A DNA stretch of 61,833 nucleotides, filler included, from Nemertoderma westbladi (Eukaryota > Animalia > Xenacoelomorpha), in the NCBI GenBank assembly GCA_032718475.1. It is 3 parts of 3 records of this genome, joined end to end, with 100 filler letters (N's around TTAATTAATTAA, not from the genome) between each part and the next. Parts side by side here need not be neighbours in the genome. Positions count along the whole stretch, not along the records: positions 21,197 to 38,751 come from JAUCBJ010004309.1; 2 more parts are not named here. One strand, 5' to 3'. Each line of letters starts with the position of its first letter. Position 1 is the stretch's first letter. Shown in pieces: positions 1 through 44,707 of this stretch. The notes below the pieces were generated by a model. The model saw nothing but the letters and a program-made list of their open reading frames with translations, ran no database searches and was not told the DNA's origin. The translations under genes and the position numbers were made by a program.

Positions 1-20
1 CAACTGAAGCGAGCACTAAC

Positions 21-12673: not shown

Positions 12674-13035
12674 TTTTCGAATCTTTTTTTTCACATCCTG
12701 GGGTTGAGCTGTGTCGATTGTTATAACTTTCATTGACGGACTAGCTATAGCTTCGGAGGAGTTCACCCGATATACATACATACATACATACATACAATCA
12801 TAGTGAATACTTTTACAGTAAGAAGTCCTAACGAAAAAATAAACAAAATCTAAACCATTATTGAGAGAAAGCTCCCTCTGGTTTTGTAGAATATTATTAT
12901 TATTAGGACACAAATTAGTAAATTCGTAAATTCAATCGACTTCCATAGGGACAATGTTAAATGATAGAATCCGGATCCTGATCCGGATCCGCGTTTTACT
13001 CTGACCCTACAAGTAGTCTCTATGTTGGCACTCAC

Positions 13036-17729: not shown

Positions 17730-18640
17730 TCCCAAATTACTCTGTCAGCCGCCCCAACTCACTCTGCGGCCACCCCAAATCATTCGGTGAGCCGCCCTAA
17801 ATCACTCGGTCAGCGGCTCCAAATCACTCGGTCAGCCGCCCCAAATCACTCGGTCAGCCGCCTCAAATCACTGAGTCAGCCGCCTCAAATCACTCAAGTC
17901 AGCCGCCCCAAATCATTGAGTCAGCCGCCTCGCCCGAAATCACTCGGTCAGCGGCTCCAAAACTCTCGGTCAGCCTCCCCAAATCATTCGGTAAGCCGCC
18001 CTAAATCACTGAGTCAGCCGCCTCAAATCACTCAAGTCAGCCGCCCCAAATCATTCGGTAAGCCGCCCTAAATCACTCAGGCAGCCGCCCCAAATCACTC
18101 AAGTCAGCCGCCCCAAATCACTCGGTCAGCGGCTCCAAATCACTTGGTCAGCCGCCCAAAATCATTCGGTAAGCCGCCCTAAATCACTGAGTCAGCCGCC
18201 TCAAATCACTCAAGTCAGCCGCCCCAAATCATTCGGTAAGCCGCCCTAAATCACTCAGGCAGCCGCCCCAAATCACTCAAGTCAGCCGCCCCAAATCACT
18301 CGGTCAGCGGCTCCAAATCACTCGGTCAGCCGCCCAAAATCATTCGGTAAGCCGCCCTAAATCACTCAGTCAGCCGCCCCAAATCACTCGGCCAGTGGCT
18401 CCAAATCACCAGTCAGCCGCCCCATATCACTCGGTCAGCCGCCCCAAACAATTCGGTAAACCGCCCTAAATCACTCAGTCAGCCGCCCCAAATCACTCGG
18501 CCGGTGGCACCAAATGTCAGCCGCTCCAAATCACCAGTCAGCCGCCCCATATCACTCGGTCAGCCGCCCCAAAATCACTCGGTGACCCGCCCCAAATCAC
18601 TCGATGACCCGCCCCAAATCACTCGGTCATCCGCCTCAGA
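17730..18640. repeat. 22-bp GC-rich minisatellite (~40 copies) in a TOGARAM intron
   Basis: Unit ccccaaatcactcggtcagccg with variants and higher-order blocks. Confidence 0.95.
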
Positions 18641-18675
18641 TCAAACCACGAGTTCACCATAGAAGACACACTAAC

Positions 18676-18842
18676 CTTTGTTTATCTTCTAGTTCCCGTA
18701 ATTTTTCCCTGACCTTCTGTCTGTCCCTCTCCCTTTCCTTGTTGCTATCCTCCCGATGTTGACGTCTCTCATCAGCCTCCTGTTGACGTCTGTTTATCTT
18801 TTCTCTAGCTGACTGCGAAACTGCCAAGGATTCGCCAGAGTT
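18676..18842 (-). CDS. TOGARAM1: TOGARAM1-like gene, charged coiled-coil linker exon (most 5' exon visible)
   Basis: cag|NSGESLAVSQSAREKINRRQQEADERRQ...KLRELEDKQR|gttagt joins in phase 2 to exon 13806-13982 (QAEAKRR). Upstream exons were not found and may lie in or beyond the gap. Confidence 0.65.
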
Positions 18843-21096: not shown

Positions 21097-21196
21097 NNNN
21101 NNNNNNNNNNNNNNNNNNNNNNNNNNNNNNNNNNNNNNNNTTAATTAATTAANNNNNNNNNNNNNNNNNNNNNNNNNNNNNNNNNNNNNNNNNNNN
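21097..21196. other. Scaffold gap with TTAATTAATTAA spacer
   Basis: N44-ttaattaattaa-N44, identical in format to the gap at 38752-38851. Confidence 0.95.
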
Positions 21197-22009
21197 ATCA
21201 GAATAAGCATAACATTACACGGTACATTACATGAGCGAATTAGAGTATTAAGGACTGAAGGATGGCCTACAGTACAAACTGACTACAGTAGTGGTAATCA
21301 ATGGACGGTGAAGTATGGCGTATGGGTGCGGTGCGATGCGGTCTACAATTTTTACTATCCCCGTTATCTATCAGTACCGGAATGGAATCGAATATCGCGA
21401 GAGTTTGTAATGTATAGGCCATCCATCCTCACTCAATGCTGTAATACGCCGCCACGCGGTAGCTAGTCACTAGTCTGATGGAAGCGAAGAAGGGTATGGA
21501 CAACAGTAGCCTACTGCTGTACTGACTACTGGTAATAAAGTAACGGAATGTCCTTAACCTGTTCAGACTGTAATAATTCCGTTTGTTGAATATTATATGT
21601 ATACTTTTGTACATTCATCTTTACTTGTCTCTTTGTATTAATTAATTTGTTTGTTTGTCTTTCATATACTATGAACTCATTATTCGAATTTCTGTCTTGG
21701 TATATTGTCTGTTTGTTCTGTTTTTGTTCATTTTGTAAATTATGTTCCTGATTCACGTTCCGTACGCTATTCATATTTCTGATCTCATTCTATTTATCCA
21801 AGTACTTCCGGTTTGTGTTACTTCCGGTTTGTGTTACTTCCGGTTTGTGTTATGTTCTTTTTGTTAATTGATTAAGTTCCTGATTCTCGTTTTCATTCTG
21901 CTCATACTATTCATCTATTTTGTGCTTAACCTTCCCTTCCTGAGGACTACTATAGGTTTGTTAATGTTTCTTCTTTGTGTTTCTTGATTGTTTTTTTAGT
22001 CTATAAATT

Positions 22010-23084: not shown

Positions 23085-26000
23085 ATGGTTGTAAATCACC
23101 AGTTATGCATAACTAAACGGAAATCTTACTGGGAGCTACTAAGGTTGAGTAGTGGGATCTGTGCGGTGGAGATGGTTTATGCGTCTGAGCTGGCCTTTGT
23201 GTCTCCTTTGTTGCTGAGAGTTGGACTTAGTAAAACCTACATGACTATGGTCTGGTTAGTAATACTTCCAGTATCAATACAATACCTATAAGACTATATA
23301 GTTTATGGTTAAAATAATGATTTAGTAATACGGTAGTAGTACAGTAATAGTACAATATAATAACAATGGTTGGTATATACTGTATATGTAGGATGTTACT
23401 TTCGCCTGACATCAACAATGTAATTAACAGCACAGCTGACGTTGCCAGGATTCCAAATATGTAACAATATCTGAATTTAGGTGAGAATCAGCTGAGATAT
23501 AGGCGTTCAAAGATTGGAGGAATAATTGTACGGGTGACAGCTACTGCTTAAAGGCAGTCGTTGGACTACCCCCAAAATACCTTGAAATGTATGATAATGT
23601 TACGCCGGCACTAAATGATGAATATTAGAGATTCGATACTGTAAAATTATCGCGGTACCAATTTGCCAAATCCATTCCTCAATAAAATCCTACCCTGCAA
23701 CTCCATCGCTTGGCAGTCATTAATAATTATCTTCACAATCTTGTTGCCTTGTTCTATATTAATAATAACTGTTACGCCGAATGTTCAATAAAACTGAACT
23801 TATGGTTGATCGAGTTGGACGACTTGTTTTGAGTGTACCGGTGTCCGGTTATATACCGCAATACATACAGGCCAAACATATAGTAGCATGTAATGTAATA
23901 TCTTTAGGATAACAGTAGTGTTAAACTATTTATGTAAATGTTAAAAATTTCCATCCTACTAAAAAATGAAATGTTGGCCTACAGTATGGGGATGAGCGAA
24001 TCTGAAATTATAGTTTAGGTGGGGAAGTCAGCAGTACTCCAGCCTCCACCAGGGTCAAATAGGTGTAAAGGATGGAATATAAAGGCCCGGTTTAGCGACA
24101 CGCTTTGCACTTTCAGCGCATTTGAGATGTTCAGCGACAACGCTTTGTAAATGCGTTGAGTTCAAAGTGCTCTCTGAAAACCCAGAGTTGAGAAATGTTG
24201 AACTTTCCGATTTCAAAGCGTTCCATATTAACATTATATCTATGGCGATGAATATGTGATGGATTTTCAAATTGCCATTTAAATCACATGATCACTTGCA
24301 GTTCGCGCCTGCGTTATTAAATTTATAATTGAGGTAGACCGTATAGTATACAGTATAAAAATGTCTTCAATTCTCGGCATTTTAAAGAAAGACCTGGCAA
24401 ATTTTGATGCAAAATTATAAATTAATTACAAGTAAATTATTGATGGATTATTGATAACTTTTCTCAAACATCGTTGCAACTATGTTTAAATATTGCTGCA
24501 ACCACATTTCCACAAATCGTTGTCGTTAAACCGAAAACGATTAGCTGGCGCTTCGCCAACGCACTCTGAACTCATTTTCAAAGTTGTCCCAGCGCGGTAA
24601 GAGTGCTCTCAACGAGTGCTGAAAGTGCGTTGAAAGTCTATGGAAAGCAAACCGGGCCTTACCCCGTTACCCGTTAAGTAGGCTACACTACAGTAAGCTT
24701 CCTTACTTTGCCCTGCGCCAAGGCTCATCGAACGTATGCAATGAACGAACTTCATTATTCGCAGGTGTCTGTCTCCCCTCCTCGGATTCTTCCTGACACC
24801 TGTACTCGGTTCCCTTAGCGACCAGTGCTCCTCTCCTATTGGTCGCCGCAGACCGTTTATCGCTGGACTCACTGCCACAATGCTCATCGGTCTGCTAATA
24901 ATCCCCAACTCCGTCAACCTAATCGAATCAACATCACCGATCCCCGACTTTCCATCCAATCAGAGCCAAATAGAATATATTGCCAAAGAAACCACTGACC
25001 AATCGGATAACAGTAGAACCTTGTGGTATCTGGGAAGAGTTTTGATGGTCATCGGGATAATATTTTTGGATTTCAGCAGCGATGCGAACACAAGCAGCAT
25101 TCGGTCGTATTTACTGGATGTACTCCACCCGGACGACCACAGTAGGGGACTGAGGTTAGTAAAACATAGACCACCACTAGTTCACATACTTACATATTCA
25201 CATAATGTCGTCATAGGGTTTTTCGAAAATTTAGTGCACGTGTTTGTCCATACATTTGACTATTATGCTTATGTACCTCTTCTGAAGAATTGGTTCAACA
25301 GAAAGGCTTGAAATTTGGAGGGGAATTAATTTTGCATGTGTCTCAGATGTGGTAGCAGAATACTTATTTTGATCACCAGAAATTTTCAAAGTGGAAAATG
25401 TTATTTGTAAAAAGTATTTTGGCTGTTTTTTTGTGATGTAACTTTTGAAATTTCTAACAGACATGTCTAAATGTGGTACCAATACTGTACAGTATAAAGG
25501 AATAGTAGAAGAAAATGTTCAATGAAAATTGAAATCGCTGAAAATTTCATGCAATTTGGTCCAGTAGTTCCAGAGAAACAGATATATGAGTGAAAAATGA
25601 AAAGGAAAACACAGACAGACAGCCTGATATAGACCATCTAGACTCCTTTAACCGTTAAAACAGACATCATAAATGAAATTATAGACTGACAGACAAACAG
25701 AGAGCTATAACTCGAGAACTAAAAAAGATCTCGCTATGTCGTTTTCTTTCAGTTTTGAAATCGCCATTAAATTTTGATCCAGAATCCGTAAAAAAAATGT
25801 TGATTTCTTTTAAATTTTGACCACAAACAGGAGCCCTTAAAATCATTGTTATTTGACATGGTTATAAATTTAACTCTTCAGTTCTGTAGACAGTTTACAT
25901 TGTAGTAAAACATTGTAATCACATCTTGTGTATCTCGTTACATTTTAAACTTTTCATATATCATGTACTGGAACACTACATCATATTTCAGTAAGAAAAA

Positions 26001-29000
26001 AAAAATTCCAAAAAAAAAATATTAATTTAAAATGAATCAAACGTTTTAAAAAACTGACGCCATTGATATTGTCTGGTTGAACCGCAGCCATAACAATACG
26101 TGTTTCATTTTCGTTGTATTTGTTGCTTTGGTGAGCAGGATCCTTATAGTGAGTTTACTTATTATATCTTTCGTAGTAATTTCAATTCTTAATTAAATAT
26201 TACCAACCAACTATCTTTGCAGCACGTTTACTTTCCTTGCTGGTTTCGGGGGTGCACTGATTTATGCTGCGAGCGCCATAGACTGGGACAAACTAACCGG
26301 CAGAACATCTGAATTAGAGGAACATGCTGCGGCAATATTCTACTTTTGTGCCGTATGTTTGGTCATTCAGGTTGGTGGTCTTAATGGTTAATAAAAAAAA
26401 CGCCTCTGCAATTTATATTTCAATGTATATTAGTTCTCACCTTGTCAGATAGGGGGAACTGGACGCAATAAAAATTCATCCCTCTCCAGGGGAAATTCGA
26501 ATAACAGCTGAATACTCTCAAAAATAAAACTGTAACCTGTTCTATTGTGTTTAGTTTATTGTTTTGGTTAAAATAACGTGCCACTGTAACCTGCTCCTTT
26601 CCCTAAATTGAGAATTTTACATTGAGGCGGGATATTAATTCGCCAAGGCGGGTTTTGCGTCGAGTTCCCCCCCCCCACTCCCCCTGTCTCCACCTCGTCG
26701 TAGAGGTTTTAATCCGTGGCCTTGAATTTACATCTCTCCGGAGGTCGTGAGAGTTTTGTGTCCCTGGCCTAACTACCTGAGAATAGTTCAATTATTTAAT
26801 ACAATAGGCCTACTTTACTTTTAACATTATTTAACAATTATTTAATACAATAGGCCTACTTTACTTTTAACATTATTTAATTGTTATGTATTATTTACAC
26901 AATTCTATTGTCATTATCGCACATTGTGCAATAATAAAGTAAAGATAAACCTATCAACTCAATAGATACAACAAATAATTATTTCCTAACTCGAATTTAT
27001 TCAGGTCGCTCTGACTATTACTGGGCAGAAGGAAGTCCCGCTGTCGGCTTTAACCCAAGTAACAGTCCCTACTGGTAGTTTGTTTGAAGATTCAGATGAT
27101 GATGTTTTAAGGTGCAGTATAAAATAAAATATAGCCATTCTATCCCTACCGGTACCAAAGTTTTTATTAGCTATAGTATTCACTCGATACGTTGTTGTTG
27201 TATTTCCAGTTAGGTTTTAACTGAAAACTCAAAAAAACTCAAAACCTCGCAGTAGTGGAGAGTTTGGTAGAGCGTTTGACTTCGAATCTCTAGGTGTACC
27301 GAGTTCAATCCCACATTCCGGTGAATTTTTTAGATAGTAAGATTGGTAGTAAGCCATTCAAGGAAGAGACCGTTCATGCGTTAGTAGACGCGGACCTTTG
27401 GGCGATTTTGCGCATGCTAATTTGACTTTTAGATGACAGAAAAAAAATTAATATACATATTAAAGTAAAAGTTTGAATTTATAAAGCAAATGAATATTGT
27501 TATATTAATTATTAAACTAATTAATAAATATTGAACTAATTTTCAAGAAAGTGAACAACAACCATATAGCGGTGGTAATTTAATTAAGCAAGTAGAACTA
27601 GTTAATAAAAAACTGGAGACCCATTGCTGCATGCGATGAGTACCGGGGGACAACCGCTAGCGTTCATCTCATAACAAGGGCATTCTCAGGAGGACAAGCT
27701 GAGAGAAATGCCAACAGAGATACGTCACAAAGGGATAGATAAATATTAATGAAGTAAATCAGAGTGGATGAGTTGCACGTAACTATAGTAACTAACCACA
27801 GGTAAGCAGTAACATTAGCCCGGATGTTGCCGCTTCATAAATTATAAGAGGGTGTTGAACTGACACTCAGAATTTGTTATATTTCAAAATTATCTGTTTT
27901 GGTTATAAATATTATTATTATTGCAGTAGAACGGTGTATAAAGACGACATCATTGAAACAGATGTTACCGAAACCGCCGTACCGGTACTTACAGACCACA
28001 ATGGGAAGGACAGTGTAGATTCTTATGAGGATATCGGCCTAGAAACCGAGTCCAACCAATCAGTGGAAGTGAAAGAAAATAAAAGGTTATGTCCAGCTTA
28101 GCATGAGTTAGTTAGCAGCACACTAATAACGGTTGGTTGTCATAAGGCCCGAGTCAGACATGAGCTTTCCCATAGGCTAGGCCTACACCATTCTGTTATA
28201 ACTATCGGTAATTCTAGCCAACCGTTAGAATGGCATTATATTAATATACTTTAGTACTTTATTATTTATTCTGAATGTGCTAATATTTTAGGCGCAAACT
28301 AAAAGAAATTGATGAGGTTGAGTTGACCTATTCTGTTAAACTCGCTCCCAATGAGGAGACAAGCTTGCGACAGTATCTGTGGAGTATAATTCGGTTGCCA
28401 TGGTGGTTGTTTATAGTCTGTCTGTCTAACTATCTCTGTTGGGTCAGCATAATGAGTTACATGATATTCTTTACAGACTTTGTTGGTAAGCAACCCTAAC
28501 TAATAGCAACCGTAGCTAACAGCAACCGTAACCACAGCAACCGTAACGCACACTAACAGCAACCGAAACATTTAATATTTAGCAGTTTCAATGTGTATAT
28601 TTGTTGTTATAGGCCTATACATTTTATACACAGGAGGTTTGAAAAAACAACTTGACTTTTCCAATGGATTTAATAATAATGGGTTTTCTTAAGGGAACCA
28701 ATTAAACTGTTTCTCTCCCTCTAAAAAATATGTTATTGCTTTACCGTGATAAATGAGTTGATAGTTTCACATTATTATAATTATGATATTACAACATTGT
28801 ATATATATACTGTATACACTGCCCTTTCATTGTGTAGCAAGTGGTTATAGAGGGAGGACGACGTAAATTGCGGACATACAAAGTATTAGGTAGTATTTCT
28901 AGGTCTACCTTTAACCTGAGAACCTAAATGAATGGTTAGAGCGCCAGAGTTCCAACCTGAAGGTCACCAGTTCGATCCCACCTGGACGTAATTGCCGACT

Positions 29001-30706
29001 ATTGCTAATATTGTACATTAATTCACTGTTAGGTGAATCTATATACAAAGGAAATCCGACGGGAACTATTGAGGAGAAGGCGTTGTACAACGTGGGAGTT
29101 CGTAGAGGATGTTGGGGATTGGCTATATGGTGTATAGCTAGTTCTTTTATAAGTTCAATGTATGCGAGTATATTGTCTCGTTTCGGTGAGTTGTAATTCA
29201 TTAACATTCATATATATATCTACATGCTGTATTGAGAATACTACGACGGATTGGTAAGTTAAAGATCACCCCGCCCACTCCCCCTACACATAATATATTG
29301 TCAAAAAATTAGGCCGCCTCAATTTATTATCTCCCGTGACTGAGATTATCTAATATATTTCAATCACTTGTGTTGTATATAGGATCCAAACGTACGTACA
29401 TCTTCGGGATGCTTATCAACACATTCGGGGCTATAGTCCAGGGTTTCGCTAACAACTTCGCTATCTCCATGTTCCTCAGCTGTCTTGGGGGTTTACTCTA
29501 CACCTCAACGTTTGTCATTCCCTTCAATATCGTCGCTACATATCACTCTCACGGATTGGTTAGTGTTTACTTTATAGGACTGTCACGGATTGGTTAGTGT
29601 TTACTTTATACGATTCTCACAGATTAGTTAGTTTACTTTATGCATGCGCCACCCACGGATTGGTTAGTGTTTACTTTATACGATTCTCACAGATTAGGTA
29701 GTTTACTTTATGCGACTCCCCTCGGAGTAGTTAGTGTTTACTTTATACGACTATCATGGATTGGTTAGTTAGTACTTTATGCGCCACCCACGGATTGGTT
29801 AGTGTTTACTTTATACGACACTCACGGATTGGTTAGTGTTTACTTTATACGATTCTCACAGATTAGGTAGTTTACTTTATGCGACCCCCCTCGGAGTGGT
29901 TAGTGTTTACTTTATACGACTCTCATGGATTGGTTAGTTAGTACTTTATGCGCCTCCCACGGATTAGTTAGTGTTTACTTTATACGACACTCACGGATTC
30001 GTTAGTGTTTACTTTATACGTCTCTCACGGGTTAGGTAGTTTACTTTATGCGACTCCCCTCGGAGTGGTTAGTGTTTACTTTATACGACTCTCATGGATT
30101 GGTTAGTTAGTACTTTATGCGCCTCCCACGGATTAGTTAGTGTTTACTTTATACGACACTCACGGATTCGTTAGTGTTTACTTTATACGTCTCTCACGGG
30201 TTAGTGTTTACTTTATGCGACTATCACGGATTGGTTAGTTTATTTATACTTTATACGACTCTCACAGATTGGACAGTATACTTGACATTACTGTTATTTT
30301 ACTTTATTTTACTTGAACGGACTGCTAATTTTATATTGCAGATTAGTAATCCTTTGTTTGGAAACTACTCTAAGTCAATATATAACGTCAATATGAGATA
30401 TCTACAGTTCGCACCAGTTAATTGTTGATGGTTTTTTTGTTTTAGGGTGGGTCCCAGCCGGGAGGTAAACGAATAGCCCCCCGCGGTCTGGGAACCGATG
30501 TTGGCATAGTAACCAGTATGATGTTTGTAGCCCAGTTCACGCTCAGCCTGTTTATGGGTTCCATAGTGGAGGCGGTTGGTACCACTAGCGCCACCATGTT
30601 TACCAGCGGGATATTCAGTGGCTTAGCAGCGATAATAGCGACGAGGATAGACTACCTAGATGATTACTCCGCCAATAGCAAAGATGGCTTCCAGTTAATG
30701 GCTTAA
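23085..30706 (+). CDS. SLC45: SLC45-family (proton-associated sugar transporter/MATP-like) MFS protein. Exons: 23085-23254, 24765-25154, 26223-26370, 27005-27111, 27927-28085, 28292-28485, 29033-29185, 29383-29558, 30446-30706
   Basis: Motifs EMVYASELAFVSPLLL, W|CLSPLLGF..P.LGSLSDQCSSPIGRRRPFI, LDFSSD...IRSYLLD, FTDFVGESIYKGNP, YNVGVRRGCWGL and RGLGTD. All GT-AG junctions are phase-compatible. The start codon is uncertain. Confidence 0.9.
24083..24659. mobile_element. Tourist/PIF-Harbinger-like MITE in SLC45 intron 1
   Basis: Terminal inverted repeats aggcccggttt / aaaccgggcct plus subterminal gcactttcagc / gctgaaagtgc. Confidence 0.65.
27249..27325 (+). mobile_element. Degenerate tRNA-derived SINE head or tRNA pseudogene
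   Basis: A-box-like tggtagagcg and B-box-like gagttcaatccc, with no intact cloverleaf. Confidence 0.45.
28915..28990 (+). mobile_element. tRNA-derived SINE head, same family as 49760-49833 and 50062-50316
   Basis: cctgag...gaatggttagagcgccaga...aggtcaccagttcgatcccacc. Flanking sequence is also shared with the 49760-49890 copy. Confidence 0.6.
29545..30270 (+). repeat. ~30-34-bp tandem array (~22 copies) made from the SLC45 exon 8 donor junction
   Basis: Unit cgactctcacggattg|gttagtgtttactttata. The first copy is the real exon end and donor (29558/29559). Confidence 0.9.
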
Positions 30707-32723
30707 ATAAATATGTTATTAAAATTTCCAGTTTAGAATTTAAATTTAATTTAAAACAATCTGTTACTAACTGTATAAAATCACCAAGTCCAGAAAGAGA
30801 AGAAACACATTTAGTAAAGGGTGTTTTTCATAAAAACTAAATAATTATTGAATAACTACGTAAACAAACACTGCCGCGTTAATGCAAAAACACCTCATCT
30901 CAAAAATATCGAAATACTGCATTTAATACAATAAGGTAATTTATAGTTTTTGGTACCACCAACTCAAATCCGAAAATCAGATATCGGCATATATTCCTAC
31001 GAACCGATTACTGAATTAAATGTTCGTTGTTGCTGGATGTGGATAAATTTCGTACAAAAGTCCTCAAGATTGAAGTTCCTGACATTCTTATAAGAAAAGT
31101 TTAAAAAGCATCAAATTTTCTTGTTTCGGCTGGAAGGGGCGTGACGACGTAACAGACACTGCCACCAACATATTATGTGGGGCGAGCCACGCAGTCAGGG
31201 CAAACCTTAGCGCACAATTATAATTCGTAAATAGGGCAAAGTTTCATGTCCGTATGACTGTCTGTCTGTCCGTCTGTCTTTCTGTCCTTCTCTAATGAAA
31301 AATTCATTCGTAAATAACTTTTTGAAGATTTTAACCATTTTCAACCAAATTTTGTATGGACATACTAGAGAAAAAGTTCCAATACTTTTGAAAGTTGGGG
31401 GCAAATACCGAACTTTTGACTCCAGATCAAATCGAACTTGTTTCGAGTTCACGTGCTGCGCGACGCCCCACGAACGTGTTTTTCCTTCAAATAAATTAGG
31501 TTAGGTATGTAATGCTAAGCAGCTTTATTCAAATAGCCCCAAAAGTGTTTCTATGACAACTGCATAATTCCAAACTTATGATAAAGTTTATACCAAAAAC
31601 TATAATTTCAATTGTTTTGGTTTATTTGAAAATGAAATTTAAGTATAAATAGCAAACACTGCTGTACGATCATAGTGTTGTTGTACCTAAATTTAATTTA
31701 GCGAACTAAATTATTTGACATGATATATAATTTTAAGAAACTTTTATAAAATAAAAATTGTTAAATATAAATTGTGTGTTTCAGGTATTCATGTTACGGT
31801 CTATTTATAGTAACTGTGTTACAGTAGCTGATGATGTATGTAGTCAGAGTAAATTGTGGTTAAGATTATAATAATATAGTTAGTTACAAACATAATGATA
31901 ACTTTTATAGTGAATGATAATTCTTGAATATATTCCGATATTAAATACGGAGGTTCGGTAAAGTAAAGGAGTTTATATAATCGCATTATATTATTCATAC
32001 AGATAAATTGTACTTTATCATTCATTGCTAAACCAAATAGCACAAAAAACGCGCGTACATATTCCAAGTCACGTATTTACTCAAATTATAAAACCCGGGC
32101 GTTAAAATGGGGGCGAGAGTGAGAGGGGTCTCATTCGAGGCAGATACTGTTAATTTTCGAAGGGGGGGGGGGGGGGGGGGGGTGTTGTATTTTATTAAGT
32201 ACACTTAAAAACAAAAAAAAAACAATTTAAGTTCTATTATAGACCAGACATTCTGAACTAAAATGGAAATTGTTTGCAATATTGCAATAGTTCAATTATT
32301 TATCGAGACATTTTACTTTATATTTTGTTTACTGCAGGTAGATAATGAAAAAAAGGAAATAACCCCTGGTGAGAACAAAAAATATATTTGATATACTTAC
32401 AGAATTTAATTCAGCCACACAAGTTCAGTTTTTATTCACTTACACTAGAGTTGCAACAGAGACCTGATTTTCTTAATCCCGGTAAACCAGAGCCCTACCC
32501 AGAGAATTATTTTGAAAAATACCGGAGACCAGAGCCGGAGATCAGAGACTTTGCATATTTTTATACTTACAATTTGATTACTCCCCTATATCACAAACAG
32601 GTACATACGGCCTTAGAACTGTTTTTCTATGGTTCAATTACAGTAAAGTAAATCCAACCCATTTCTCAACCCTTACCTACCGATTGTAAGAAAATAAGCG
32701 CACATACAGTTTGGGGGGCTTAA

Positions 32724-33632
32724 GGGGGGGGGGGGGGGGGGGGTATACCCCCCATGAACCTTTTATTAAAATGGCTGTCAATTAGTGTTAAATGATAATA
32801 TTGATATTTTGTCATGGTCAACCACTGTATGGAAGGCCAAAAAGCCTTTATAGTAAAATTTGAAAATTTATAGCCTCCCCCTAGCGGCTGGCGGCGGAAT
32901 TAAAGATTTCACTAAAATTGCTACTAGTCACTCAATTAATTTTGGTCCAAATTTCTTGAAACCAACTTTTTTGGACTCAGCGTGATCGACTCTACAAAAG
33001 TTATCTTATAGAATTTTTAATTAGCCATTTTTATTTTAATTAATTAATTTAATTAATTAATTATCATATTTTTAATAAAATTGGCTAATTAGAAAAAATA
33101 GTAATATTTATCAAAATTCCGTAAGATAACTTTTAAAGAGCTTCCAAAGCTTGTTCGAATGAGCCATAAACGAAGAAAATTGGTTAAAAAATGACGGAGG
33201 AGTAGTAATTTGAAAATGAAAAATGTCATTCCGAGAAAATGCCCTTCAAAGTTTAAACCGTCCCGCCAAAATTGGCTGTCTGTGTTCTGGTTGGTTAGTT
33301 ATTTTTGGCAAGAAGGATGCACACCAACGAGCTAAAATGTTCATTACTGGGGTTTTCGGGGTCGCTGATTTCATTTCCGATGTCAGTTTTAATTTTTGGT
33401 GGAATCTAGTCTATCTGTCTGTCTGTCGGTCTTCTGTCTTTCTTACAATTTGACGGACAGACCGTCATACGGAAAAACAGTGATAACTCGAGAACTAAAA
33501 GAGGTCTCACTAAGCGGTTTTCAGATTTGTAATCCTCATTAAATTCTGCTCTAGATGAAATAAAGAAGCAACAATTTGAAAATTTTACCTGAGGGGGGGG
33601 GGGGGGGGGGGTATACCCCCCCCCCCCCCCCC
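32724..33632. mobile_element. Non-autonomous DNA transposon with poly-G/poly-C termini and TTAA flanks (Kolobok-like)
   Basis: TTAA-G(n)TATACCCC ... GGGGTATAC(n)-TTAA terminal inverted repeats. Confidence 0.55.
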
Positions 33633-34055
33633 TTAATTAATATTAATTTGGTTATTTGTTTATTAATTCGTTCTTATTTTGTTATTGTTAATAATATGTT
33701 ACATTAATTTGTTTTGCGCCATAGGTACCGATACGTTGTTAATTAAAGTTACGCCCGTTCTCTCCATTTGGTCTTCATATTATCTATCCTATAACAAATT
33801 GAATTGAGATCAGCCCTTTCTTTCACTTTTAAACATTACGGGAGCTCAAATTAAGCGCCCTTATCCTTAAATAAGAACCCTCTTTAGGTGCTAATTAAAA
33901 TTAAAATTAAACGCACCTTAAATTAATTAAATAGAAGATTATCGCTACAATATTTATTAGAAATAGAAATAGTGTAAAAGTGAATATGTAATTTTGTTGA
34001 AGCAGAGTATTAAAAATATTTAAAAATTAAAGAAATTATTAATTGGAAAAAATTT

Positions 34056-36415
34056 GTGAATAATAATAAGTCCCAGATAGACCATATTCTGTTTCGTAGG
34101 AAATACAGGAGCTCTATACAAGACTGTAATGCATTTACACTTCGACCCTTCTCCAGTGATCACCGCCTTATTGTGGCCAAGGTAAGACTTAGTCTGCGTG
34201 CTAGCAGAACAACGAAATCTGCCTTGCCGCGGCATGACTGGTCCTCTCTGTTGCAACAGCCAAGTGTGAGATCCAGCTTCACATTACAGCTGAGCAACAG
34301 GTATGAGGCTCTTGCCTCTGAGGCGGCAGATCACTGTGAGGGCTATACTGCCTTTACAGAAGCAGTTAAGTTAGCAGCTGCAGAAACAGTTCCTGTATAC
34401 CCTCGAAACAGGAAAAGGGCCCCCTGGACTGACAACAAAATTCAGAAGTGCCGAAATGACCTTCATAAGGCGCAGAAAGAGTCCCGACTCAAACAGACTA
34501 CAGCGGCCAAGAATGCAGTTAAGGCTGCATCTAGGTCCCTGAACAGGCAGTACTCTATTAATCTACAGGAGCTAATAAACCAACAGGTTGATGCCATCAA
34601 TGATGCTGACGACAGCAGGCAATCATCCCAGGCATGGAAATCGATCAATTTGCTTACTGGGCGGAAAAGCCAACCAACCACCAAGGTTAAGGCTGAATCA
34701 CCAGCCGATCGCCTCAATGGTTGGAAAGCCCACTTTGAAAAGCTCCTCAATAATGACAGGGTATTGCCTGATAACTTTATAGAAGTAAAAGTGTCTGAGT
34801 CTGTACTCCCAGATATTCCCATTGGCGATATCTCCTTTGCAGAAGTGAAGGCTGCTGCAAAGAGCATTAAGACCAATCGTGCCAGTGGAGTAGATGGTGT
34901 TCCCCCTGAGGTCTTTAAAATACCTGAGTGTTTAAAGCTCATCTATCCCATCATAGTAGACATGTACCGAACAACAAGAGTTCCACAAGAAATGAAAACA
35001 AATAAGTTGGTGCCAGTTCCCAAGAAGGGCAACCTAACACTCTATGGTTCTTTTCGGGGAATCTCATTGATCTCGATTGCTGCAAAGCTATACAATAGGA
35101 TTCTATTAAATCGCATCAGGGATCCCATTGAGAGACTGCTCCGTGGAAATCAGAATGGGTTCCGTAAAGGTCGTGGGACCATGGAGCCCATTTTGGCACT
35201 TAGAAGGATAATTGAAGAATTATCAAAAAAGAAAGACAGGCACCTGGCTGTTATCTTTGTTGACTTCTTCAAGGCCTTTGATTCAGTCTCTCGCTCACGT
35301 ATGTTCAGCATACTTTCATTATATGGGATTCCTGATGAAATTATTGCAGCAATCAGATCAGTATACGATGGTTCGACAACATTTGTGTCTACTGTTGACG
35401 GTGACACAGAACCATTTGAAGTGTTATGGGGCGTCCTCCAAGGAGACACACTTGCACCATTCTTGTTCATTATTGTGGTTGACTATGTTCTACGCATGTC
35501 CTTAGATCATCATAATGATGATGGGGTGATGATAACTCCACCTACTGGCTCCAGAAGTCGAGGAAATCCTGCCAAGTACCTAACTGATCTAGACTTTGCT
35601 GATGACTTAGGAGTACTCTCAGAATCATTAGAGGGAGCCCAACGGCTCCTCAGCTCATTAGAACATGCTGCTTCTAGTGTTGGTCTTTTTATTAACTCCA
35701 GAAAGACCAAAATTTTGACAGTTAACTTTGAAAGTCCTCAGCAAGTCTCTGATCGGATGAGCATAAGCTCAAAAGATGGTATGCTTGAGCATGTGGACGA
35801 CTTCTGTTACCTGGGATCATGGATCCGGAAGTCAGGTGAGGACCTTCGAATACGTAAGGGAAAGGCATGGGCAGCCTTGAATAGGCTTTCCAGGATTTGG
35901 AAGTCACCGAGAATTAATCGGAAACTTAAGGTCCGATTATTTAGAGCAGCAGTAGTTCCAGTACTCCTCTACGGGAGTCCATGCTGGGCTCTAACTGCTG
36001 AGGACACCAAATCTCTGGATGGCACATTCACAAGAATGCTACGCCGGGTTCATTGTGTCAAGTACAATGCACACATCTCCAACCAGACACTATATAACAT
36101 TGGAGGTGTCTCATTGGTTCCCCCATGCTTGACACTAGAACAAAATCGCCTCCGCTTTGCAGGACATTGCTTTCGCCGTGAGGACCAGCCAGTGCATAAT
36201 CTTGTACTTTGGCAGCCTCATGGAGTGAATAAGCATGGTGGACAGCCCATGACTTTCTTGAGACGCATCTTAAAGGACACTGGCCTTGAAGATGCGGATG
36301 ATCTAGCAAATGTCATGGGTGATAGGGAGTTGTGGCGGTGCAATTTTGTTGACAGGCCGGCACAGCATTCTTAAAAATGCAGCTGCAATGCAGCATGCCG
36401 ATCCTAGTAGTAGTA
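34056..36415 (+). mobile_element. 5'-truncated RTE-clade-like non-LTR retrotransposon with an uninterrupted RT ORF (34056-36374)
   Basis: Endonuclease C-terminus (QIDHIL, SDHRLI), RT motifs FRGISL, QNGFR, VDFFKAFDSV, GVLQGDTLAP, FADD and YLGS, a short 3' UTR and a (TAG)n tail near 36404-36415. Confidence 0.9.
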
Positions 36416-37299
36416 TGAACACAGTTTTTGGAGCATACTACAACTGCTGACTTTTGCTGAACCAGGCTGATCAATCAGCTTATTAATAATTGCAGCCGGA
36501 TTGGATAAATTATTAATTAATTTGGGAAACTTTACTAATTAGTAAAATCGTTAATTAGTTCGATTCAAAAGATTTTAGAATAATTATTATTTGTAAAATA
36601 GTAAACCGCATTGATACACCTTGTGAATAAGGATTTGGGGGCGGGGGGGACAAAGCCCCCCCGCCAATTAGGTAATTAAGTAATTAGTTAATTACTAATT
36701 AACGGTAGGAGATACGGCATCGGCGCCAGAGACTTTTTTGTGTAGAATAAAATTCCGAACAACTTTGTGATGTTACGTTTTTTCATAGCTCTTAGTGTTT
36801 TCGAGTTACGACGCTAATTAGTTTTCGGCTAATTAGTACTAATTAACAGTAATAGGAGGGCCATAGCGATGACTGAACTTTTTTTAGATCTTACCGAGAT
36901 GAACAAAAAAAAACACCGTTGCTAGGGGAAAAACCAAATACTTTTTGAGAAAAATCAATTAGAAATCTTTAATCGCTAATTACTAATTAATTAATTAACA
37001 GATTTTTTCCACAAAAACTCCTAGCTATCGCGCTAGGGCCATCTACCAGATCGCGCAAACAGAATCGTTCTAGCTTTTGCCATTCTCCTGGAAAAATCCT
37101 TTAAAAATCGACCTAAAAAAGATCAAAGCAAAGTGCCTACTTGACAAGGGGTTCGATATAATGCTATCTTATGAGGTTTTACTTTGGTGTTTATGTTGGT
37201 TTGCTAAGTTCCGTTAAAAAGGCTGCATTATTTATTCCTCATAAGACTCTGTCGAGCCTTTGGCTCTCCAGTGGCAGCCAGACCATCCAGACCATCCAG

Positions 37300-38751
37300 T
37301 TTCTTAAATAACCGCACACATTTTGTTTCAATAGGCAACACAAAATCAGAACCGATACTGTCTCCCTGTGGAACCCCACAAGGAGCAATACTGAGCGCCA
37401 CTTTATTCCTACTTTACATTAACGACTTACCCAATTGTACAACACTTCTAGCAACCCTATTCGCAGACGACACTAACCTACTTTACAGCCATACAGACCC
37501 GACCATACTGACTGACACTGTAAACACAGAACTCCAAAAGGTCGAACAATGGCTTACTGACAATCAGCTCTCTTTAAACCTTAAAAAAACAGAACACCTA
37601 ATTTTTACATTTAAAAAGGAACCTATAAATAACAATATAAATATGCAAAACTTACCAATCAAGAAAGTAACTCAAACAAAATTTTTAGGAATATGGATAG
37701 ATAACAAACTTACATGGAAAAATCACTGCGCGTATGTACTAAAAAAAATCTCAAAATCTATAGGTATATTCTTCAAATTACGTCACATCCTACCATTAGG
37801 CATTATGAAATTACTTTACTACGCTTTGATACAACCATATATTACGTACGGTATAGTGATCTGGGGAACTGCTAAACATGTTCATATTAATCCGATTAAA
37901 ACTAAAATAAACAAATTAATTAGAGCAATTACCTTCAGTCACTACCGGAAACATGCACCACCACTATACAGACAATTAAATATACTACCTATAGACAAAT
38001 TACACATACTTGAAACAGCTAAACTAATCTGGGAAATCCGTAATAACAAAAAACGATCTTTTATAACATCATTGTTCCAACAAACATCCACTTTACATAC
38101 TTACAATACTCGATCAACGACACGCCAAAACTACTTTATACCTCGGACCCGACTATTACTAACTCAAAATTCATTAAAATATCACGGCGCCATTGTCTGG
38201 AACTCCTTAGACACCGACATAAAACAAAGCAAATCGAAAAAAACACTAGGTAGGAAACTAAAAATCAAATTAATTAATGAACTACAGTAAAAACAAAAAT
38301 GATATAAATTAAATACAAATAAATATCAAACCTAATCTTCCAAAAAATAACAATTTAATTATTTACAACAGATATCACAGGTAAAAAATAGTTGGAATAC
38401 AACTATTGGTTATGGTTATGGATATGGCAGAATTGAACTTAGTAGTGGCTGGCGGCATCCCTTGAAATTCTCCCCCCCCCCCCCCCCTCCCCCACCCACC
38501 CCTGATTGACCGATGGCAGCAACCGGCATTACTAGCTACCGCTACTGTCAGTTCCTGCCAGGGCACATAAACATAATAGCACACAAAAAAATTGCAGAAC
38601 ATACAAACAAATTTGAAATGCTCTCAAGGTGAATTATATTTTAATTTGTTTTGTGAACTACTGTTTATTTAAATATTGTCTGTAAATTGTGTGCGGTCAC
38701 TCTGGAACAAAATATAAGAGCCCTTACAGGCTCACATCAATCAATCAATCA
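37300..38751 (+). mobile_element. 5'-truncated L2/CR1-group LINE (RT C-terminal half to 38290, 3' UTR, (TCAA)n tail)
   Basis: GTPQGAILSATLFLLYINDL, FADDT, KFLGIWIDNKLTW and HTYNTRS; ends in atcaatcaatcaatca before the gap. Confidence 0.85.
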
Positions 38752-38851
38752 NNNNNNNNNNNNNNNNNNNNNNNNNNNNNNNNNNNNNNNNNNNNTTAAT
38801 TAATTAANNNNNNNNNNNNNNNNNNNNNNNNNNNNNNNNNNNNNNNNNNNN
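38752..38851. other. Scaffold gap with TTAATTAATTAA spacer
   Basis: N44-ttaattaattaa-N44. Confidence 0.95.
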
Positions 38852-41800
38852 CAGGTATTGCGGGCTCTGCTACTCTCCTTATTAGTACCTACTGTAGGCC
38901 GACAGTATAATATTACTCATATACTTTAGGTATCCATATCGCCAGGTATTGCGGGCTCTGCTACTCTCCTTATTAGTACCTACTGTAGGCCGACAGTATA
39001 ATATTCCCCATATACTTTAGGTATCCATATCGCCAGGTATTGCGGGCTCTGCTACTCTCCTTATTAGTACCTACTGTAGGCCGACAGTATAATATTCCTC
39101 ATATACTTTAGGTATCCATATCGCCAGGTATTGCGGGCTCTGCTACTCTCCTTATTAGTACCTACTGTAGGCCGACAGTATAATATTACTCATATACTTT
39201 AGGTATCCATATCGCCAGGTATTGCGGGCTCTGCTACTCTCCTTATTAGTACCTACTGTAGGCCGACACTATAATATTACTCATATACTTTAGGTATCCA
39301 TATCGCCAGGTATTGCGGGCTCTGCTACTCTCATTATTAGTACCTACTGTAGGCCGACAGTATAATATTCCCCATATACTTTAGGTATCCATATCGCCAG
39401 GTATTGCGGGCTCTGCTACTCTCCTTATTAGTACCTACTGTAGGCCGACAGTATAATATTCCCCATATACTTTAGGTATCCATATCGCCAGGTATTGCGG
39501 GCTCTGCTACTCTCCTTATTAGTACCTACTGTAGGCCGACAGTATAATATTACTCATATACTTTAGGTATCCATATCGCCAGGTATTGCGGGCTCTGCTA
39601 CTCTCCCTATTAGTACCTACTGTAGGCCGACACTATAATATTACTCATATACTTTAGGTATCCATATCGCCAGGTATTGCGGGCTCTGCTACTCTCCTTA
39701 TTAGTACCTACTGTAGGCCGACAGTATAATATTCCCCATATACTTTAGGTATCCATATCGCCAGGTATTGCGGGCTCTGCTACTCTCCTTATTAGTACCT
39801 ACTGTAGGCCGACAGTATAATATTACTCATATACTTTAGGTATCCATATCGCCAGGTATTGCGGGCTCTGCTACTCTCCTTATTAGTACCTACTGTAGGC
39901 CGACAGTATAATATTCCCCATATACTTTAGGTATCCATATCGCCAGGTATTGCGGGCTCTGCTACTCTCATTATTAGTACCTACTGTAGGCCGACAGTAT
40001 AATATTCCCCATATACTTTAGGTATCCATATCGCCAGGTATTGCGGGCTCTGCTACTCTCCCTATTAGTACCTACTGTAGGCCGACAGTATAATATTACT
40101 CATATACTTTAGGTATCCATATCGCCAGGTATTGCGGGCTCTGCTACTCTCCTTATTAGTACCTACTGTAGGCCGACAGTATAATATTCCCCATATACTT
40201 TAGGTATCCATATCGCCAGGTATTGCGGGCTCTGCTACTCTCCTTATTAGTACCTACTGTAGGCCGACAGTATAATATTCCCCATATACTTTAGGTATCC
40301 ATATCGCCAGGTATTGCGGGCTCTGCTACTCTCCTTATTAGTACCTACTGTAGGCCGACAGTATAATATTCCCCATATACTTTAGGTGTCCATATCGCCA
40401 GGTATTGCGGGCTCTGCTACTCTCCTTATTAGTACCTACTGTAGGCCGACAGTATAATATTACTCATATACTTTAGGTATCCATATCGCCAGGTATTGCG
40501 GGCTCTGCTACTCTCCTTATTAGTACCTACTGTAGGCCGACAGTATAATATTCCCCATATACTTTAGGTGTCCATATCGCCAGGTATTGCGGGCTCTGCT
40601 ACTCTCCTTATTAGTACCTACTGTAGGCCGACAGTATAATATTACTCATATACTTTAGGTATCCATATCGCCAGGTATTGCGGGCTCTGCTACTCTCCTT
40701 ATTAGTACCTACTGTAGGCCGACAGTATAATATTCCCCATATACTTTAGGTGTCCATATCGCCAGGTATTGCGGGCTCTGCTACTCTCATTATTAGTACC
40801 TACTGTAGGCCGACAGTATAATATTACTCATATACTTTAGGTATCCATATCGCCAGGTATTGCGGGCTCTGCTACTCTCCTTATTAGTACCTACTGTAGG
40901 CCGACAGTATAATATTCCCCATATACTTTAGGTGTCCATATCGCCAGGTATTGCGGGCTCTGCTACTCTCCTTATTAGTACCTACTGTAGGCCGACAGTA
41001 TAATATTACTCATATACTTTAGGTATCCATATCGCCAGGTATTGCGGGCTCTGCTACTCTCCTTATTAGTACCTACTGTAGGCCGACAGTATAATATTCC
41101 CCATATACTTTAGGTGTCCATATCGCCAGGTATTGCGGGCTCTGCTACTCTCCTTATTAGTACCTACTGTAGGCCGACAGTATAATATTCCCCATATACT
41201 TTAGGTATCCATATCGCCAGGTATTGCGGGCTCTGCTACTCTCCTTATTAGTACCTACTGTAGGCCGACAGTATAATATTCCCCATATACTTTAGGTATC
41301 CATATCGCCAGGTATTGCGGGCTCTGCTACTCTCCTTATTAGTACCTACTGTAGGCCGACAGTATAATATTCCCCATATACTTTAGGTGTCCATATCGCC
41401 AGGTATTGCGGGCTCTGCTACTCTCATTATTAGTACCTACTGTAGGCCGACAGTATAATATTACTCATATACTTTAGGTATCCATATCGCCAGGTATTGC
41501 GGGCTCTGCTACTCTCCTTATTAGTACCTACTGTAGGCCGACAGTATAATATTCCCCATATACTTTAGGTGTCCATATCGCCAGGTATTGCGGGCTCTGC
41601 TACTCTCCTTATTAGTACCTACTATAGGCCGTCAGTATAATATTACTCATATACTTTAGGTATCCATATCGCCAGGTATTGCGGGCTCTGCTACTCTCCT
41701 TATTAGTACCTACTGTAGGCCGACAGTATAATATTCCCCATATACTTTAGGTGTCCATATCGCCAGGTATTGCGGGCTCTGCTACTCTCCTTATTAGTAC

Positions 41801-44707
41801 CTACTGTAGGCCGACAGTATAATATTACTCATATACTTTAGGTATCCATATCGCCACGTATTGCGGGCTCTGCTACTCTCCTTATTAGTACCTACTGTAG
41901 GCCGACAGTATAATATTACTCATATACTTTAGGTATCCATATCGCCAGGTATTGCGGGCTCTGCTACTCTCATTATTAGTACCTACTGTAGGCCGACAGT
42001 ATAATATTACTCATATACTTTAGGTGTCCATATCGCCAGGTATTGCGGGCTCTGCTACTCTCATTATTAGTACCTACTGTAGGCCGACAGTATAATATTA
42101 CTCATATACTTTAGGTATCCATATCGCCAGGTATTGCGGGCTCTGCTACTCTCCTTATTAGTACCTACTGTAGGCCGACAGTATAATATTCCCCATATAC
42201 TTTAGGTGTCCATATCGCCAGGTATTGCGGGCTCTGCTACTCTCCTTATTAGTACCTACTGTAGGCCGACAGTATAATATTACTCATATACTTTAGGTAT
42301 CCATATCGCCAGGTATTGCGGGCTCTGCTACTCTCCTTATTAGTACCTACTGTAGGCCGACAGTATAATATTCCCCATATACTTTAGGTGTCCATATCGC
42401 CAGGTATTGCGGGCTCTGCTACTCTCATTATTAGTACCTACTGTAGGCCGACAGTATAATATTCCCCATATACTTTAGGTATCCATATCGCCAGGTATTG
42501 CGGGCTCTGCTACTCTCCTTATTAGTACCTACTGTAGGCCGACAGTATAATATTCCCCATATACTTTAGGTATCCATATCGCCAGGTATTGCGGGCTCTG
42601 CTACTCTCCTTATTAGTACCTACTGTAGGCCGACAGTATAATATTCCCCATATACTTTAGGTGTCCATATCGCCAGGTATTGCGGGCTCTGCTACTCTCA
42701 TTATTAGTACCTACTGTAGGCCGACAGTATAATATTACTCATATACTTTAGGTATCCATATCGCCAGGTATTGCGGGCTCTGCTACTCTCCTTATTAGTA
42801 CCTACTGTAGGCCGACAGTATAATATTCCCCATATACTTTAGGTGTCCATATCGCCAGGTATTGCGGGCTCTGCTACTCTCCTTATTAGTACCTACTATA
42901 GGCCGTCAGTATAATATTACTCATATACTTTAGGTATCCATATCGCCAGGTATTGCGGGCTCTGCTACTCTCCTTATTAGTACCTACTGTAGGCCGACAG
43001 TATAATATTCCCCATATACTTTAGGTGTCCATATCGCCAGGTATTGCGGGCTCTGCTACTCTCCTTATTAGTACCTACTGTAGGCCGACAGTATAATATT
43101 ACTCATATACTTTAGGTATCCATATCGCCACGTATTGCGGGCTCTGCTACTCTCCTTATTAGTACCTACTGTAGGCCGACAGTATAATATTACTCATATA
43201 CTTTAGGTATCCATATCGCCAGGTATTGCGGGCTCTGCTACTCTCATTATTAGTACCTACTGTAGGCCGACAGTATAATATTACTCATATACTTTAGGTA
43301 TCCATATCGCCACGTATTGCGGGCTCTGCTACTCTCCTTATTAGTACCTACTGTAGGCCGACAGTATAATATTACTCATATACTTTAGGTATCCATATCG
43401 CCAGGTATTGCGGGCTCTGCTACTCTCCTTATTAGTACCTACTGTAGGCCGACAGTATAATATTACTCATATACTTTAGGTATCCATATCGCCAGGTATT
43501 GCGGGCTCTGCTACTCTCCTTATTAGTACCTACTGTAGGCCGACAGTATAATATTCCCCATATACTTTAGGTATCCATATCGCCAGGTATTGCGGGCTCT
43601 GCTACTCTCCTTATTAGTACCTACTGTAGGCCGACACTATAATATTACTCATATACTTTAGGTATCCATATCGCCAGGTATTGCGGGCTCTGCTACTCTC
43701 CTTATTAGTACCTACTGTAGGCCGACAGTATAATATTACTCATATACTTTAGGTATCCATATCGCCAGGTATTGCGGGCTCTGCTACTCTCCTTATTAGT
43801 ACCTACTGTAGGCCGACACTATAATATTACTCATATACTTTAGGTATCCATATCGCCAGGTATTGCGGGCTCTGCTACTCTCATTATTAGTACCTACTGT
43901 AGGGCGACAGTATAATATTACTCATATACTTTAGGTATCCATATCGCCAGGTATTGCGGGCTCTGCTACTCTCCTTATTAGTACCTACTGTAGGCCGACA
44001 GTATAATATTACTCATATACTTTAGGTATCCATATCGCCAGGTATTGCGGGCTCTGCTACTCTCCTTATTAGTACCTACTGTAGGCCGACAGTATAATAT
44101 TACTCATATACTTTAGGTATCCATATCGCCAGGTATTGCGGGCTCTGCTACTCTCCTTATTAGTACCTACTGTAGGCCGACAGTATAATATTACTCATAT
44201 ACTTTAGGTATCCATATCGCCAGGTATTGCGGGCTCTGCTACTCTCCTTATTAGTACCTACTGTAGGCCGACACTATAATATTACTCATATACTTTAGGT
44301 ATCCATATCGCCAGGTATTGCGGGCTCTGCTACTCTCCTTATTAGTACCTACTGTAGGCCGCCAGTATAATATTCCCCATATACTTTAGGTGTCCATATC
44401 GCCAGGTATTGCGGGCTCTGCTACTCTCCTTATTAGTACTGTACCTACTGTAGGCCGACAGTATAATATTACTCATATACTTTAGGTGTCCATATCGCCA
44501 GGTATTGCGGGCTCTGCTACTCTCATTATTAGTACCTACTGTAGGCCGACAGTATAATATTACTCATATACTTTAGGTATCCATATCGCCAGGTATTGCG
44601 GGCTCTGCTACTCTCCTTATTAGTACCTACTGTAGGCCGACAGTATAATATTACTCATATACTTTAGGTATCCATATCGCCAGGTATTGCGGGCTCTGCT
44701 ACTCTCC
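38852..44707 (+). repeat. 91-bp tandem array (64 acceptor copies visible, running into the gap) made from an intron 3' end plus the exon start of the clavesin-like gene
   Basis: Unit gtatccatatcgccaggtattgcgggctctgctactctcc-ttattagtacctactgtaggccgacagtataatattactcatatactttag. The last copy continues as coding exon 44668-44797. Confidence 0.97.

What the first reader, a model, noticed from the sequence alone, without database searches (positions are those of the whole stretch)
29545..30270. Mirror case: donor-junction array in SLC45 intron 8
The exon end (cactctcacggattg) plus donor (gttagtgtttactttata) is repeated about 22 times downstream, with ~30-nt and ~34-nt variants in higher-order blocks. 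Read-through hits TAG at 29595-29597. The array is more diverged than the clavesin ones, suggesting an older event of the same kind at a 5' splice site.
Basis: seen in the sequence. Interest (0 to 1): 0.7.

Follow-up and report, generated by a model that had tools for sequence, protein, structure and literature searches.

The report
Donor-site minisatellite in SLC45 last intron
In an invertebrate transporter gene, a 34-base piece straddling the end of an exon has been copied head-to-tail about 21 times into the next intron, leaving many spare splice signals that are likely ignored; this kind of repeat is already known from human genes and lancelets.

Summary
The array is real. It has 22 units of about 34 bp (29545-30290), each 14 nt of exon end plus about 20 nt of intron start, in the last coding intron of an intact SLC45-family gene (9-exon model, 585 aa). 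17 of 21 downstream copies keep the GT; 8 match the real donor from -3 to +6. The donor at 29558/29559 is well supported but not proven, since no RNA was available. With the acceptor at 30445, only the first unit's donor keeps the frame; every copy gives a frameshift or meets TAG 29595-29597. Corrections: spacing is 33-38 bp with a single 30-bp unit; the higher-order block is a 169-bp five-mer, 95-97% alike, so the array was active recently; 'older than the clavesin arrays' is not shown. This is a known kind: the human F7, CBS, 6-16, LMNB2 and PDGF donor minisatellites, and amphioxus 'mirages'. This scan has also noted such arrays on other DNA (annelids, abalone, sea urchins). Most likely it is a tolerated neutral repeat. 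One lead remains: 3 of 5 long arrays in the window sit on splice junctions, more than a uniform model predicts.

The parts
29383..29558 (+). Penultimate coding exon (exon 8 of the 9-exon model) of an SLC45-family MFS transporter; its last 14 nt are the exon-derived half of the repeat unit
   Evidence: profile hit E 3e-8; open 585-aa model
29559..29564 (+). Inferred true donor, TTG|GTTAGT, phase 0; first unit of the array
   Evidence: only array unit whose donor gives an open frame with acceptor 30445; same hexamer at SLC45 introns 1 and 2
29545..30290 (+). Junction-spanning minisatellite: 22 units of about 34 bp
29595..29597 (+). In-frame TAG in unit 2; ends any read-through, so copies 3 and later all carry a stop
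29683..30189 (+). Three 169-bp higher-order blocks of five monomers, 95-97% identical
30258..30290 (+). Decayed terminal unit: exon-derived half 13 of 14 like the exon, GT lost (GACAGT)
29604..29622 (+). Acceptor-like pyrimidine run plus CAG made by one monomer variant; recurs ending at 29692, 29861 and 30267; none gives an open frame as a single-intron splice
30291..30445 (+). Non-repetitive rest of the intron with T-rich tract and acceptor AG at 30444-30445
30446..30706 (+). Last coding exon to the stop codon
   Evidence: best PDB match human SLC45A4, E 0.003; profile hit E 8e-19
23085..30706 (+). Whole SLC45-family coding model, 9 exons, all GT-AG, 585 aa, no internal stop
   Evidence: profile E 3e-154; best homologues 35-38% identical

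Best explanation
This is a minisatellite whose 34-bp unit straddles the last donor site of an SLC45 transporter gene; it likely began as a small tandem duplication, likely grew by slippage or unequal exchange, and is likely harmless because splicing is predicted to use the first donor. Shown: the unit is 14 nt of exon end plus about 20 nt of intron start; the first unit is continuous with the exon; monomers fall into about five types arranged in a 169-bp block repeated three times; the far end is decayed; every downstream copy gives a frameshift or stop with the strong acceptor. Inferred: (1) a duplication across a donor leaves the original donor first in line, so it is tolerated, just as a duplication across an acceptor leaves the true one last; (2) monomers diverged, then the five-mer was amplified recently; (3) the most upstream donor wins, as shown experimentally for human F7, with possible low leakage to copies 2-3 as in CBS and 6-16. 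Because this is the last intron, leakage to copy 2 would put the stop in the last exon (23 nt after the junction) and would give a protein lacking the last exon's conserved part, probably without decay of the mRNA.
For: Unit anatomy and copy number. Intact 585-aa gene with GT-AG introns. Of 79 GT x 47 AG candidates, 16 pairs keep the frame; with acceptor 30445 the only array-unit donor among them is 29559. 3 of 8 SLC45 donors are GTTAGT. The loop across the junction is 16 aa against 16-24 aa in 38 of 54 homologues. Decoys are not purged: 17 of 21 keep GT, 8 of 21 identical from -3 to +6. No folding that could hide them: z +2.85, 100 of 100 shuffles fold at least as well; units 1 and 2 equally accessible. 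Precedents: F7 uses only the first of identical donors (PMC1557585); amphioxus mirages do not disturb splicing (PMC3087553; PMC3902484).
Against: No RNA evidence, so donor use is inferred. Protein homology bounds the donor but does not pick it: 29565+30445 scores 145.6 bits, 29559+30445 141.3 and copy 2 (29593)+30464 139.2. The first has a poor donor motif (GTTTAC); the last needs an acceptor with 2 T in its tract against 12 for 30445. First-donor priority was shown in mammalian cells, not in this animal. 3 of 5 long arrays in the window span junctions against 0.2-0.5 expected under uniform placement, which plain neutrality does not fully explain. No orthologous intron or second allele was found.
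Confidence: 0.8

Rival explanations
1. Same array, but seeded by a mechanism that favours splice junctions in this lineage (for example transcription- or splicing-linked DNA breaks, or template slippage during reverse-transcript-mediated repair), so junction arrays would be strongly over-represented genome-wide.
For: 3 of 5 arrays with period >=20 and >=5 copies span a junction; P 0.0004-0.006 for 35-90 assumed junctions, and 0.009-0.05 for 2 of the other 4. A fourth array (17731-18643) nearly fills an intron, and a small one starts just after the exon 6 donor. Several neighbours are intronless, which may point to reverse-transcript activity.
Against: One window, chosen because arrays were seen; two of the three lie in one gene; junctions were counted by hand. 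Collapsed to one unit, the two measurable introns are only about 173 and 186 nt, where a seed touching the intron spans a junction 30-43% of the time. Selection alone removes most duplications that fall inside exons. No genome was held.
Confidence: 0.1
2. The array is a regulatory device: spare donors divert part of the transcripts into truncated or decay-bound forms and copy number tunes transporter level.
For: Donor cores are kept in 17 of 21 copies; all give non-productive mRNA with acceptor 30445. In human CBS and 6-16 two further donors are used (PMC1557585 introduction). Repeat length affects splicing at many human loci (PMC10078293, listing and passages).
Against: Retention of GT is expected from homogenisation alone. 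In F7, adding or deleting monomers did not change splicing. No stable RNA structure. No conservation could be shown.
Confidence: 0.05
3. A pre-existing intronic minisatellite came first and the exon's donor shifted into its first unit, so 14 nt of repeat were taken into the exon.
For: The shared exon part lies in a variable loop (16-24 aa in homologues); the window's loop is at the short end.
Against: The unit begins inside the codon of the His of the Tyr-His pair found in 38 of 54 homologues. The same unit is found nowhere else in the window. The two neighbouring arrays carry 40 and 43 nt of coding sequence, which fits exon-to-intron copying.
Confidence: 0.04
4. Assembly artefact: the array is a mis-assembled short duplication.
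For: The assembly is gapped (176 N; one gap abuts the 91-bp array). Copy number may be collapsed or inflated.
Against: About five distinct monomer types in ordered blocks with private mismatches do not arise from assembly error.
Confidence: 0.01

Closest known systems
Human F7 intron 7 37-bp VNTR (PMC1557585; abstract, introduction and most results read, parts 1-3 of 6)
   Same: First monomer spans the exon-intron boundary; identical donor copies follow in the intron; similar unit length; the first donor is the productive one.
   Different: F7 has 5-9 monomers with 4 exon nt each; here 22 units with 14 exon nt, diverged types and a 169-bp higher-order block. F7 splicing and allele variation are shown by experiment; neither could be tested here.
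Human CBS intron 13, interferon-inducible 6-16 intron 2, LMNB2 and PDGF intron 4 minisatellites (seen only as summarised in the introduction of PMC1557585)
   Same: Donor-spanning arrays of 10-25 copies, the same size range as here.
   Different: CBS and 6-16 also use two further donors; LMNB2 and PDGF use only the first. Which pattern holds here is unknown.
Amphioxus 'mirages' in Adh3, globins BflGb6 and BflGb9, troponin C, PGBD5 (PMC3087553 passages of abstract and section 16; PMC3902484 passages; original Adh3 paper PMC117041 not held)
   Same: Tandem copies of exon-intron boundaries on both 5' and 3' sides in an invertebrate; many but not all copies keep the splice signal; concerted evolution inside, cluster edges excluded; unit 10-72 bp in Adh3.
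   Different: A different gene family and probably a different animal (best homologues, Branchiostoma included, 35-38% identical). The five-monomer higher-order block is not described in the passages read. Length instability was not testable.
Internal tandem repeats at exon-intron boundaries in human duplicated genes (PMC2812944, passages) and the mirage model of intron gain
   Same: Minisatellite units of about 30 bp at boundaries as raw material for new splice patterns; here four units carry an acceptor-like CAG.
   Different: No in-frame new intron or micro-exon emerges from any single-intron combination here.

Membership tests
Junction-spanning minisatellite (F7-type VNTR / amphioxus mirage) | Head-to-tail array of 10-160-bp units | tested here: met
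   period 34, 21.4 copies, score 790
Junction-spanning minisatellite (F7-type VNTR / amphioxus mirage) | Unit contains both exon and intron sequence, with a terminal unit at the real boundary | tested here: met
   14 exon nt plus about 20 intron nt; unit 1 ends the exon in the open 585-aa model
Junction-spanning minisatellite (F7-type VNTR / amphioxus mirage) | Splice signal repeated in many copies | tested here: met
   17 of 21 keep GT, 8 identical from -3 to +6
Junction-spanning minisatellite (F7-type VNTR / amphioxus mirage) | Homogenised interior, diverged edge | tested here: met
   blocks 95-97% alike; last unit 67% to unit 1 and its nearest unit 69%
Junction-spanning minisatellite (F7-type VNTR / amphioxus mirage) | Normal mRNA made from the authentic site | not testable with these tools
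   needs RNA reads; only the frame argument is available
Junction-spanning minisatellite (F7-type VNTR / amphioxus mirage) | Copy number varies between alleles or cells | not testable with these tools
   no second allele, genome or related locus available
SLC45 family (host gene) | Full-length similarity to named SLC45 proteins with exons in order | tested here: met
   64 hits at E<=0.001 among 419 candidates, named ones mostly SLC45-type; colinear profile hits and model E 3e-154; SLC45A4 best in PDB
Intron gain by tandem duplication | A duplicated donor/acceptor pair defines a new intron that restores the frame | tested here: not met
   no open-frame pair uses an AG inside the array (16 open pairs of 79 GT x 47 AG); multi-intron paths were not enumerated by script
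Recursive splicing array | AG|GT sites with a pyrimidine tract used as zero-length exons | tested here: inconclusive
   three units read TAG|GTAGTT (29698, 29867, 30036); use needs nascent RNA reads

The most novel reading that the evidence does not exclude
This animal generates minisatellites preferentially at splice junctions, on donor and acceptor sides alike, by a splicing- or transcription-linked mutational process; its genome then holds hundreds of natural arrays of identical competing splice sites that test, in one species, whether the first donor and the last acceptor always win.
Probability: 0.1. Interest if true: 0.6.

Novelty: new member of a known kind. Interest (0 to 1): 0.2.

Why it matters
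By itself it is one more example of a described repeat type. It is a usable natural test of first-donor priority outside mammals: 8 exact donor copies, all non-productive, in a last intron where leakage to copy 2 or 3 should survive in mRNA. It can also mislead gene predictors and read mappers. It would matter more only if a genome-wide count showed true junction bias beyond short introns and selection.

Tried and rejected
No whole genome is held, so no genome-wide count. No RNA holder was listed; this is no evidence on expression. Homologue searches with the last exon (170 candidates) and exon 1 (4 candidates) gave no hit; the third, on exon 2, worked but did not list the window's own protein. 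The profile search of protein representatives never ran, so no independent annotation of this junction was seen. PDB: exon 8 gave no match, exon 1 only importin at E 1.5. The Atlas gave only weak MFS leads for exon 8. The repeat core has no exact match in metagenome contigs and no look-alike in earlier notes. Hairpin masking of decoys rejected. CpG deamination as the driver of monomer change not supported: 12 of 29 variant states are transitions and CpG observed/expected is 0.86 nearby. Global alignment did not separate the eroded ends from chance (22% and 17% of random segments score as well); only the anchored, post hoc test did for the SLC45 end. Six paper searches showed no genome-wide survey of junction-spanning minisatellites in an invertebrate; the library lacks most subscription papers, and for only 30 of 108 listings were seen. 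No supplements were opened; those of PMC3087553 and PMC2812944 may list further cases.

Full report
Observation. Tandem Repeats Finder gives an array at 29545-30272 with period 34 (21.4 copies, 76% matches, score 790) and period 169 (4.2 copies, 91%). A 29-nt core matches 12 times at up to 3 mismatches, all inside the array, with none in 100 shuffles. Cut at the donor-like site there are 22 units: the real junction, 20 inner copies and a decayed last unit. Spacing is 34 nt in 15 cases, 33 in 3, and 36, 30 and 38 once each. Read-through of the exon frame ends at TAG 29595-29597 as stated.

Host gene. A search with part of exon 2 returned 64 proteins among 419 candidates, the named ones mostly SLC45-type. 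A profile of the 54 that are 480-800 aa long hits the window in order from 23100 to 30661. A 9-exon GT-AG model reads 585 aa without a stop, E 3e-154; best homologues are 35-38% identical. The last exon's best PDB match is human SLC45A4, E 0.003. The array lies in the last coding intron, 29559-30445 (887 nt). A possible 39-nt in-frame exon at 27763-27801 would change the intron's number, not its position. The organism is an unidentified animal, probably an invertebrate, with several intronless genes nearby.

Is the donor right? Of 79 GT and 47 AG candidates, 16 pairs keep the frame to the final stop. With the T-rich acceptor at 30445 the open donors are 29514, 29532, 29559 and 29565. The first two cut conserved sequence (104.6 and 115.1 bits against 141.3). 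29565 scores slightly higher (145.6) but reads GTTTAC, far from the consensus. 29559 reads TTG|GTTAGT, and GTTAGT is also the donor of introns 1 and 2. Copy 2 (29593) is open only with acceptors 30464 or 30476, which have 2 and 1 T in their tracts against 12. The loop across the junction is 16 aa against 16-24 in 38 of 54 homologues (the motif used was recalled, then tested on those proteins). So 29559 is the best candidate, but homology alone does not single it out and no RNA was available.

Decoys. Of 21 downstream copies, 17 keep GT in register, 8 are identical from -3 to +6, 3 read GG with a new GT one base later, and the last has GA. With acceptor 30445, copy 2 gives a frameshift that stops 23 nt into the last exon; copy 3 stops 29 nt before the junction; later copies stop 65 nt or more before it. 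By the recalled mammalian 50-55-nt rule, products of copies 2 and 3 would escape decay and lack the last exon's conserved part (69 bits against 141). The RNA folds less well than its shuffles (z +2.85), units 1 and 2 are equally accessible, and no inverted repeat lies in the array, so structure does not hide the decoys. Four units also carry an acceptor-like CAG; none yields an open frame.

History. Monomers average 76% pairwise identity against 97.5% and 98.6% for the 91-bp and 55-bp arrays. But identity peaks at lags 5 and 10, and three 169-bp blocks differ by 5, 6 and 9 bases with a 149-bp exact run. The latest expansion is therefore about as recent as in the other arrays. The last unit keeps the exon half (13 of 14) but has a decayed intron half (10 of 14 to the short variant; 79 of 17,088 window 14-mers do as well, a post hoc test; a global alignment did not beat chance). 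This suggests an old seed with recent turnover. The 55-bp array also begins with a partial copy and an eroded flank, so its seed may be old too.

Context. Of 5 arrays with period >=20 and >=5 copies, 3 span a junction. Uniform placement predicts 0.19-0.47 for 35-90 junctions (P 0.0004-0.006; 0.009-0.05 for 2 of the other 4). This is a rough, post hoc figure from one window with hand-counted junctions. The two measurable introns collapse to about 173 and 186 nt, where a seed touching the intron spans a junction 30-43% of the time. No genome was held to test further.

Mechanism. Inferred: a 34-bp duplication across the donor left the true site first; slippage or unequal exchange expanded it; monomers diverged; a five-mer was then triplicated. 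Splicing likely takes the most upstream donor. In human F7 minigenes only the first of identical donors is used, the next one takes over when it is mutated, and adding or removing monomers changes nothing (PMC1557585, parts 1-3 of 6 read). Its introduction lists CBS, 6-16, LMNB2 and PDGF as further cases, with two extra donors used in the first two.

Comparison and novelty. Amphioxus 'mirages' are the invertebrate equivalent, on both 5' and 3' boundaries, with homogenised interiors, excluded edges and normal mRNA (PMC3087553, passages; PMC3902484, passages). I took the term and the first of these papers from earlier notes of this scan, which describe such arrays in annelids, abalone and sea urchins; those notes are unchecked, but I read the papers' passages myself. 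The four features of the kind testable from sequence are met; splicing outcome and allele variation could not be tested. Verdict: a new member of a known kind, interest 0.2. The most novel reading not excluded is a lineage-wide mutational bias for splice junctions (probability 0.1, interest 0.6).

Noticed in passing
window 38852-44707 and 45601-46624 (+): Two acceptor-spanning arrays in a CRAL-TRIO gene: 91 bp x 64 (about 51 intron + 40 exon nt) and 55 bp x 18.6 (12 intron + 43 exon nt); the last copy continues into the exon. The 91-bp array starts at an assembly gap, and the gene's upstream exons were not found in 30750-38800.
   Followed up: partly
window 17731-18643: 22-bp x 41 array (67-bp higher order) nearly fills an intron of a minus-strand gene, starting about 30 nt from a GTTAGT donor near 18675, without including the junction.
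   Followed up: partly
window 28489-28547: Short 16-bp array (3.8 copies) begins 3 nt after the SLC45 exon 6 donor at 28486, abutting but not including the GT.
   Followed up: no
window 1-18840 (-): A spliced gene that looks TOG-domain/TOGARAM-like (recalled resemblance; no Pfam hit for two exons) appears to host other genes in its introns: intronless RPL18A at 2725-3255 (-) and a CAF1/PARN-like nuclease at about 14905-16993 (+).
   Followed up: partly
window 50390-52744 and 57855-61055 (+): Prolyl oligopeptidase and an Eph receptor each lie in one long open frame, although both genes are recalled to be intron-rich in most animals; with RPL18A this suggests heavy intron loss or retroposition in this lineage.
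   Followed up: no
window donors at 23255, 25155, 29559 (+) and about 18675 (-): GTTAGT is an unusually common donor here (4 cases), with GTTGGT, GTTATG and GTTAGA also seen: T at +3 is frequent.
   Followed up: partly
window 27763-27801 (+): Possible 39-nt in-frame cassette exon in the SLC45 central loop with a strong CAG|GTAAGC donor.
   Followed up: partly
window 7168-7437: 46-bp x 5.9 array containing a GTAAGT motif, with no exon assigned to it.
   Followed up: no
window 34014-36374 and 37208-38290 (+): Two open frames that look like LINE reverse transcriptases (by recalled motifs) between the SLC45 and CRAL-TRIO genes.
   Followed up: no
window about 21097-21197 and 38752-38851: Both assembly gaps have the same short TTAA-repeat spacer between two N runs, probably a scaffolding mark.
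   Followed up: no
window about 8840-12680: Several diverged copies of a long repeat, not picked up whole by TRF.
   Followed up: no
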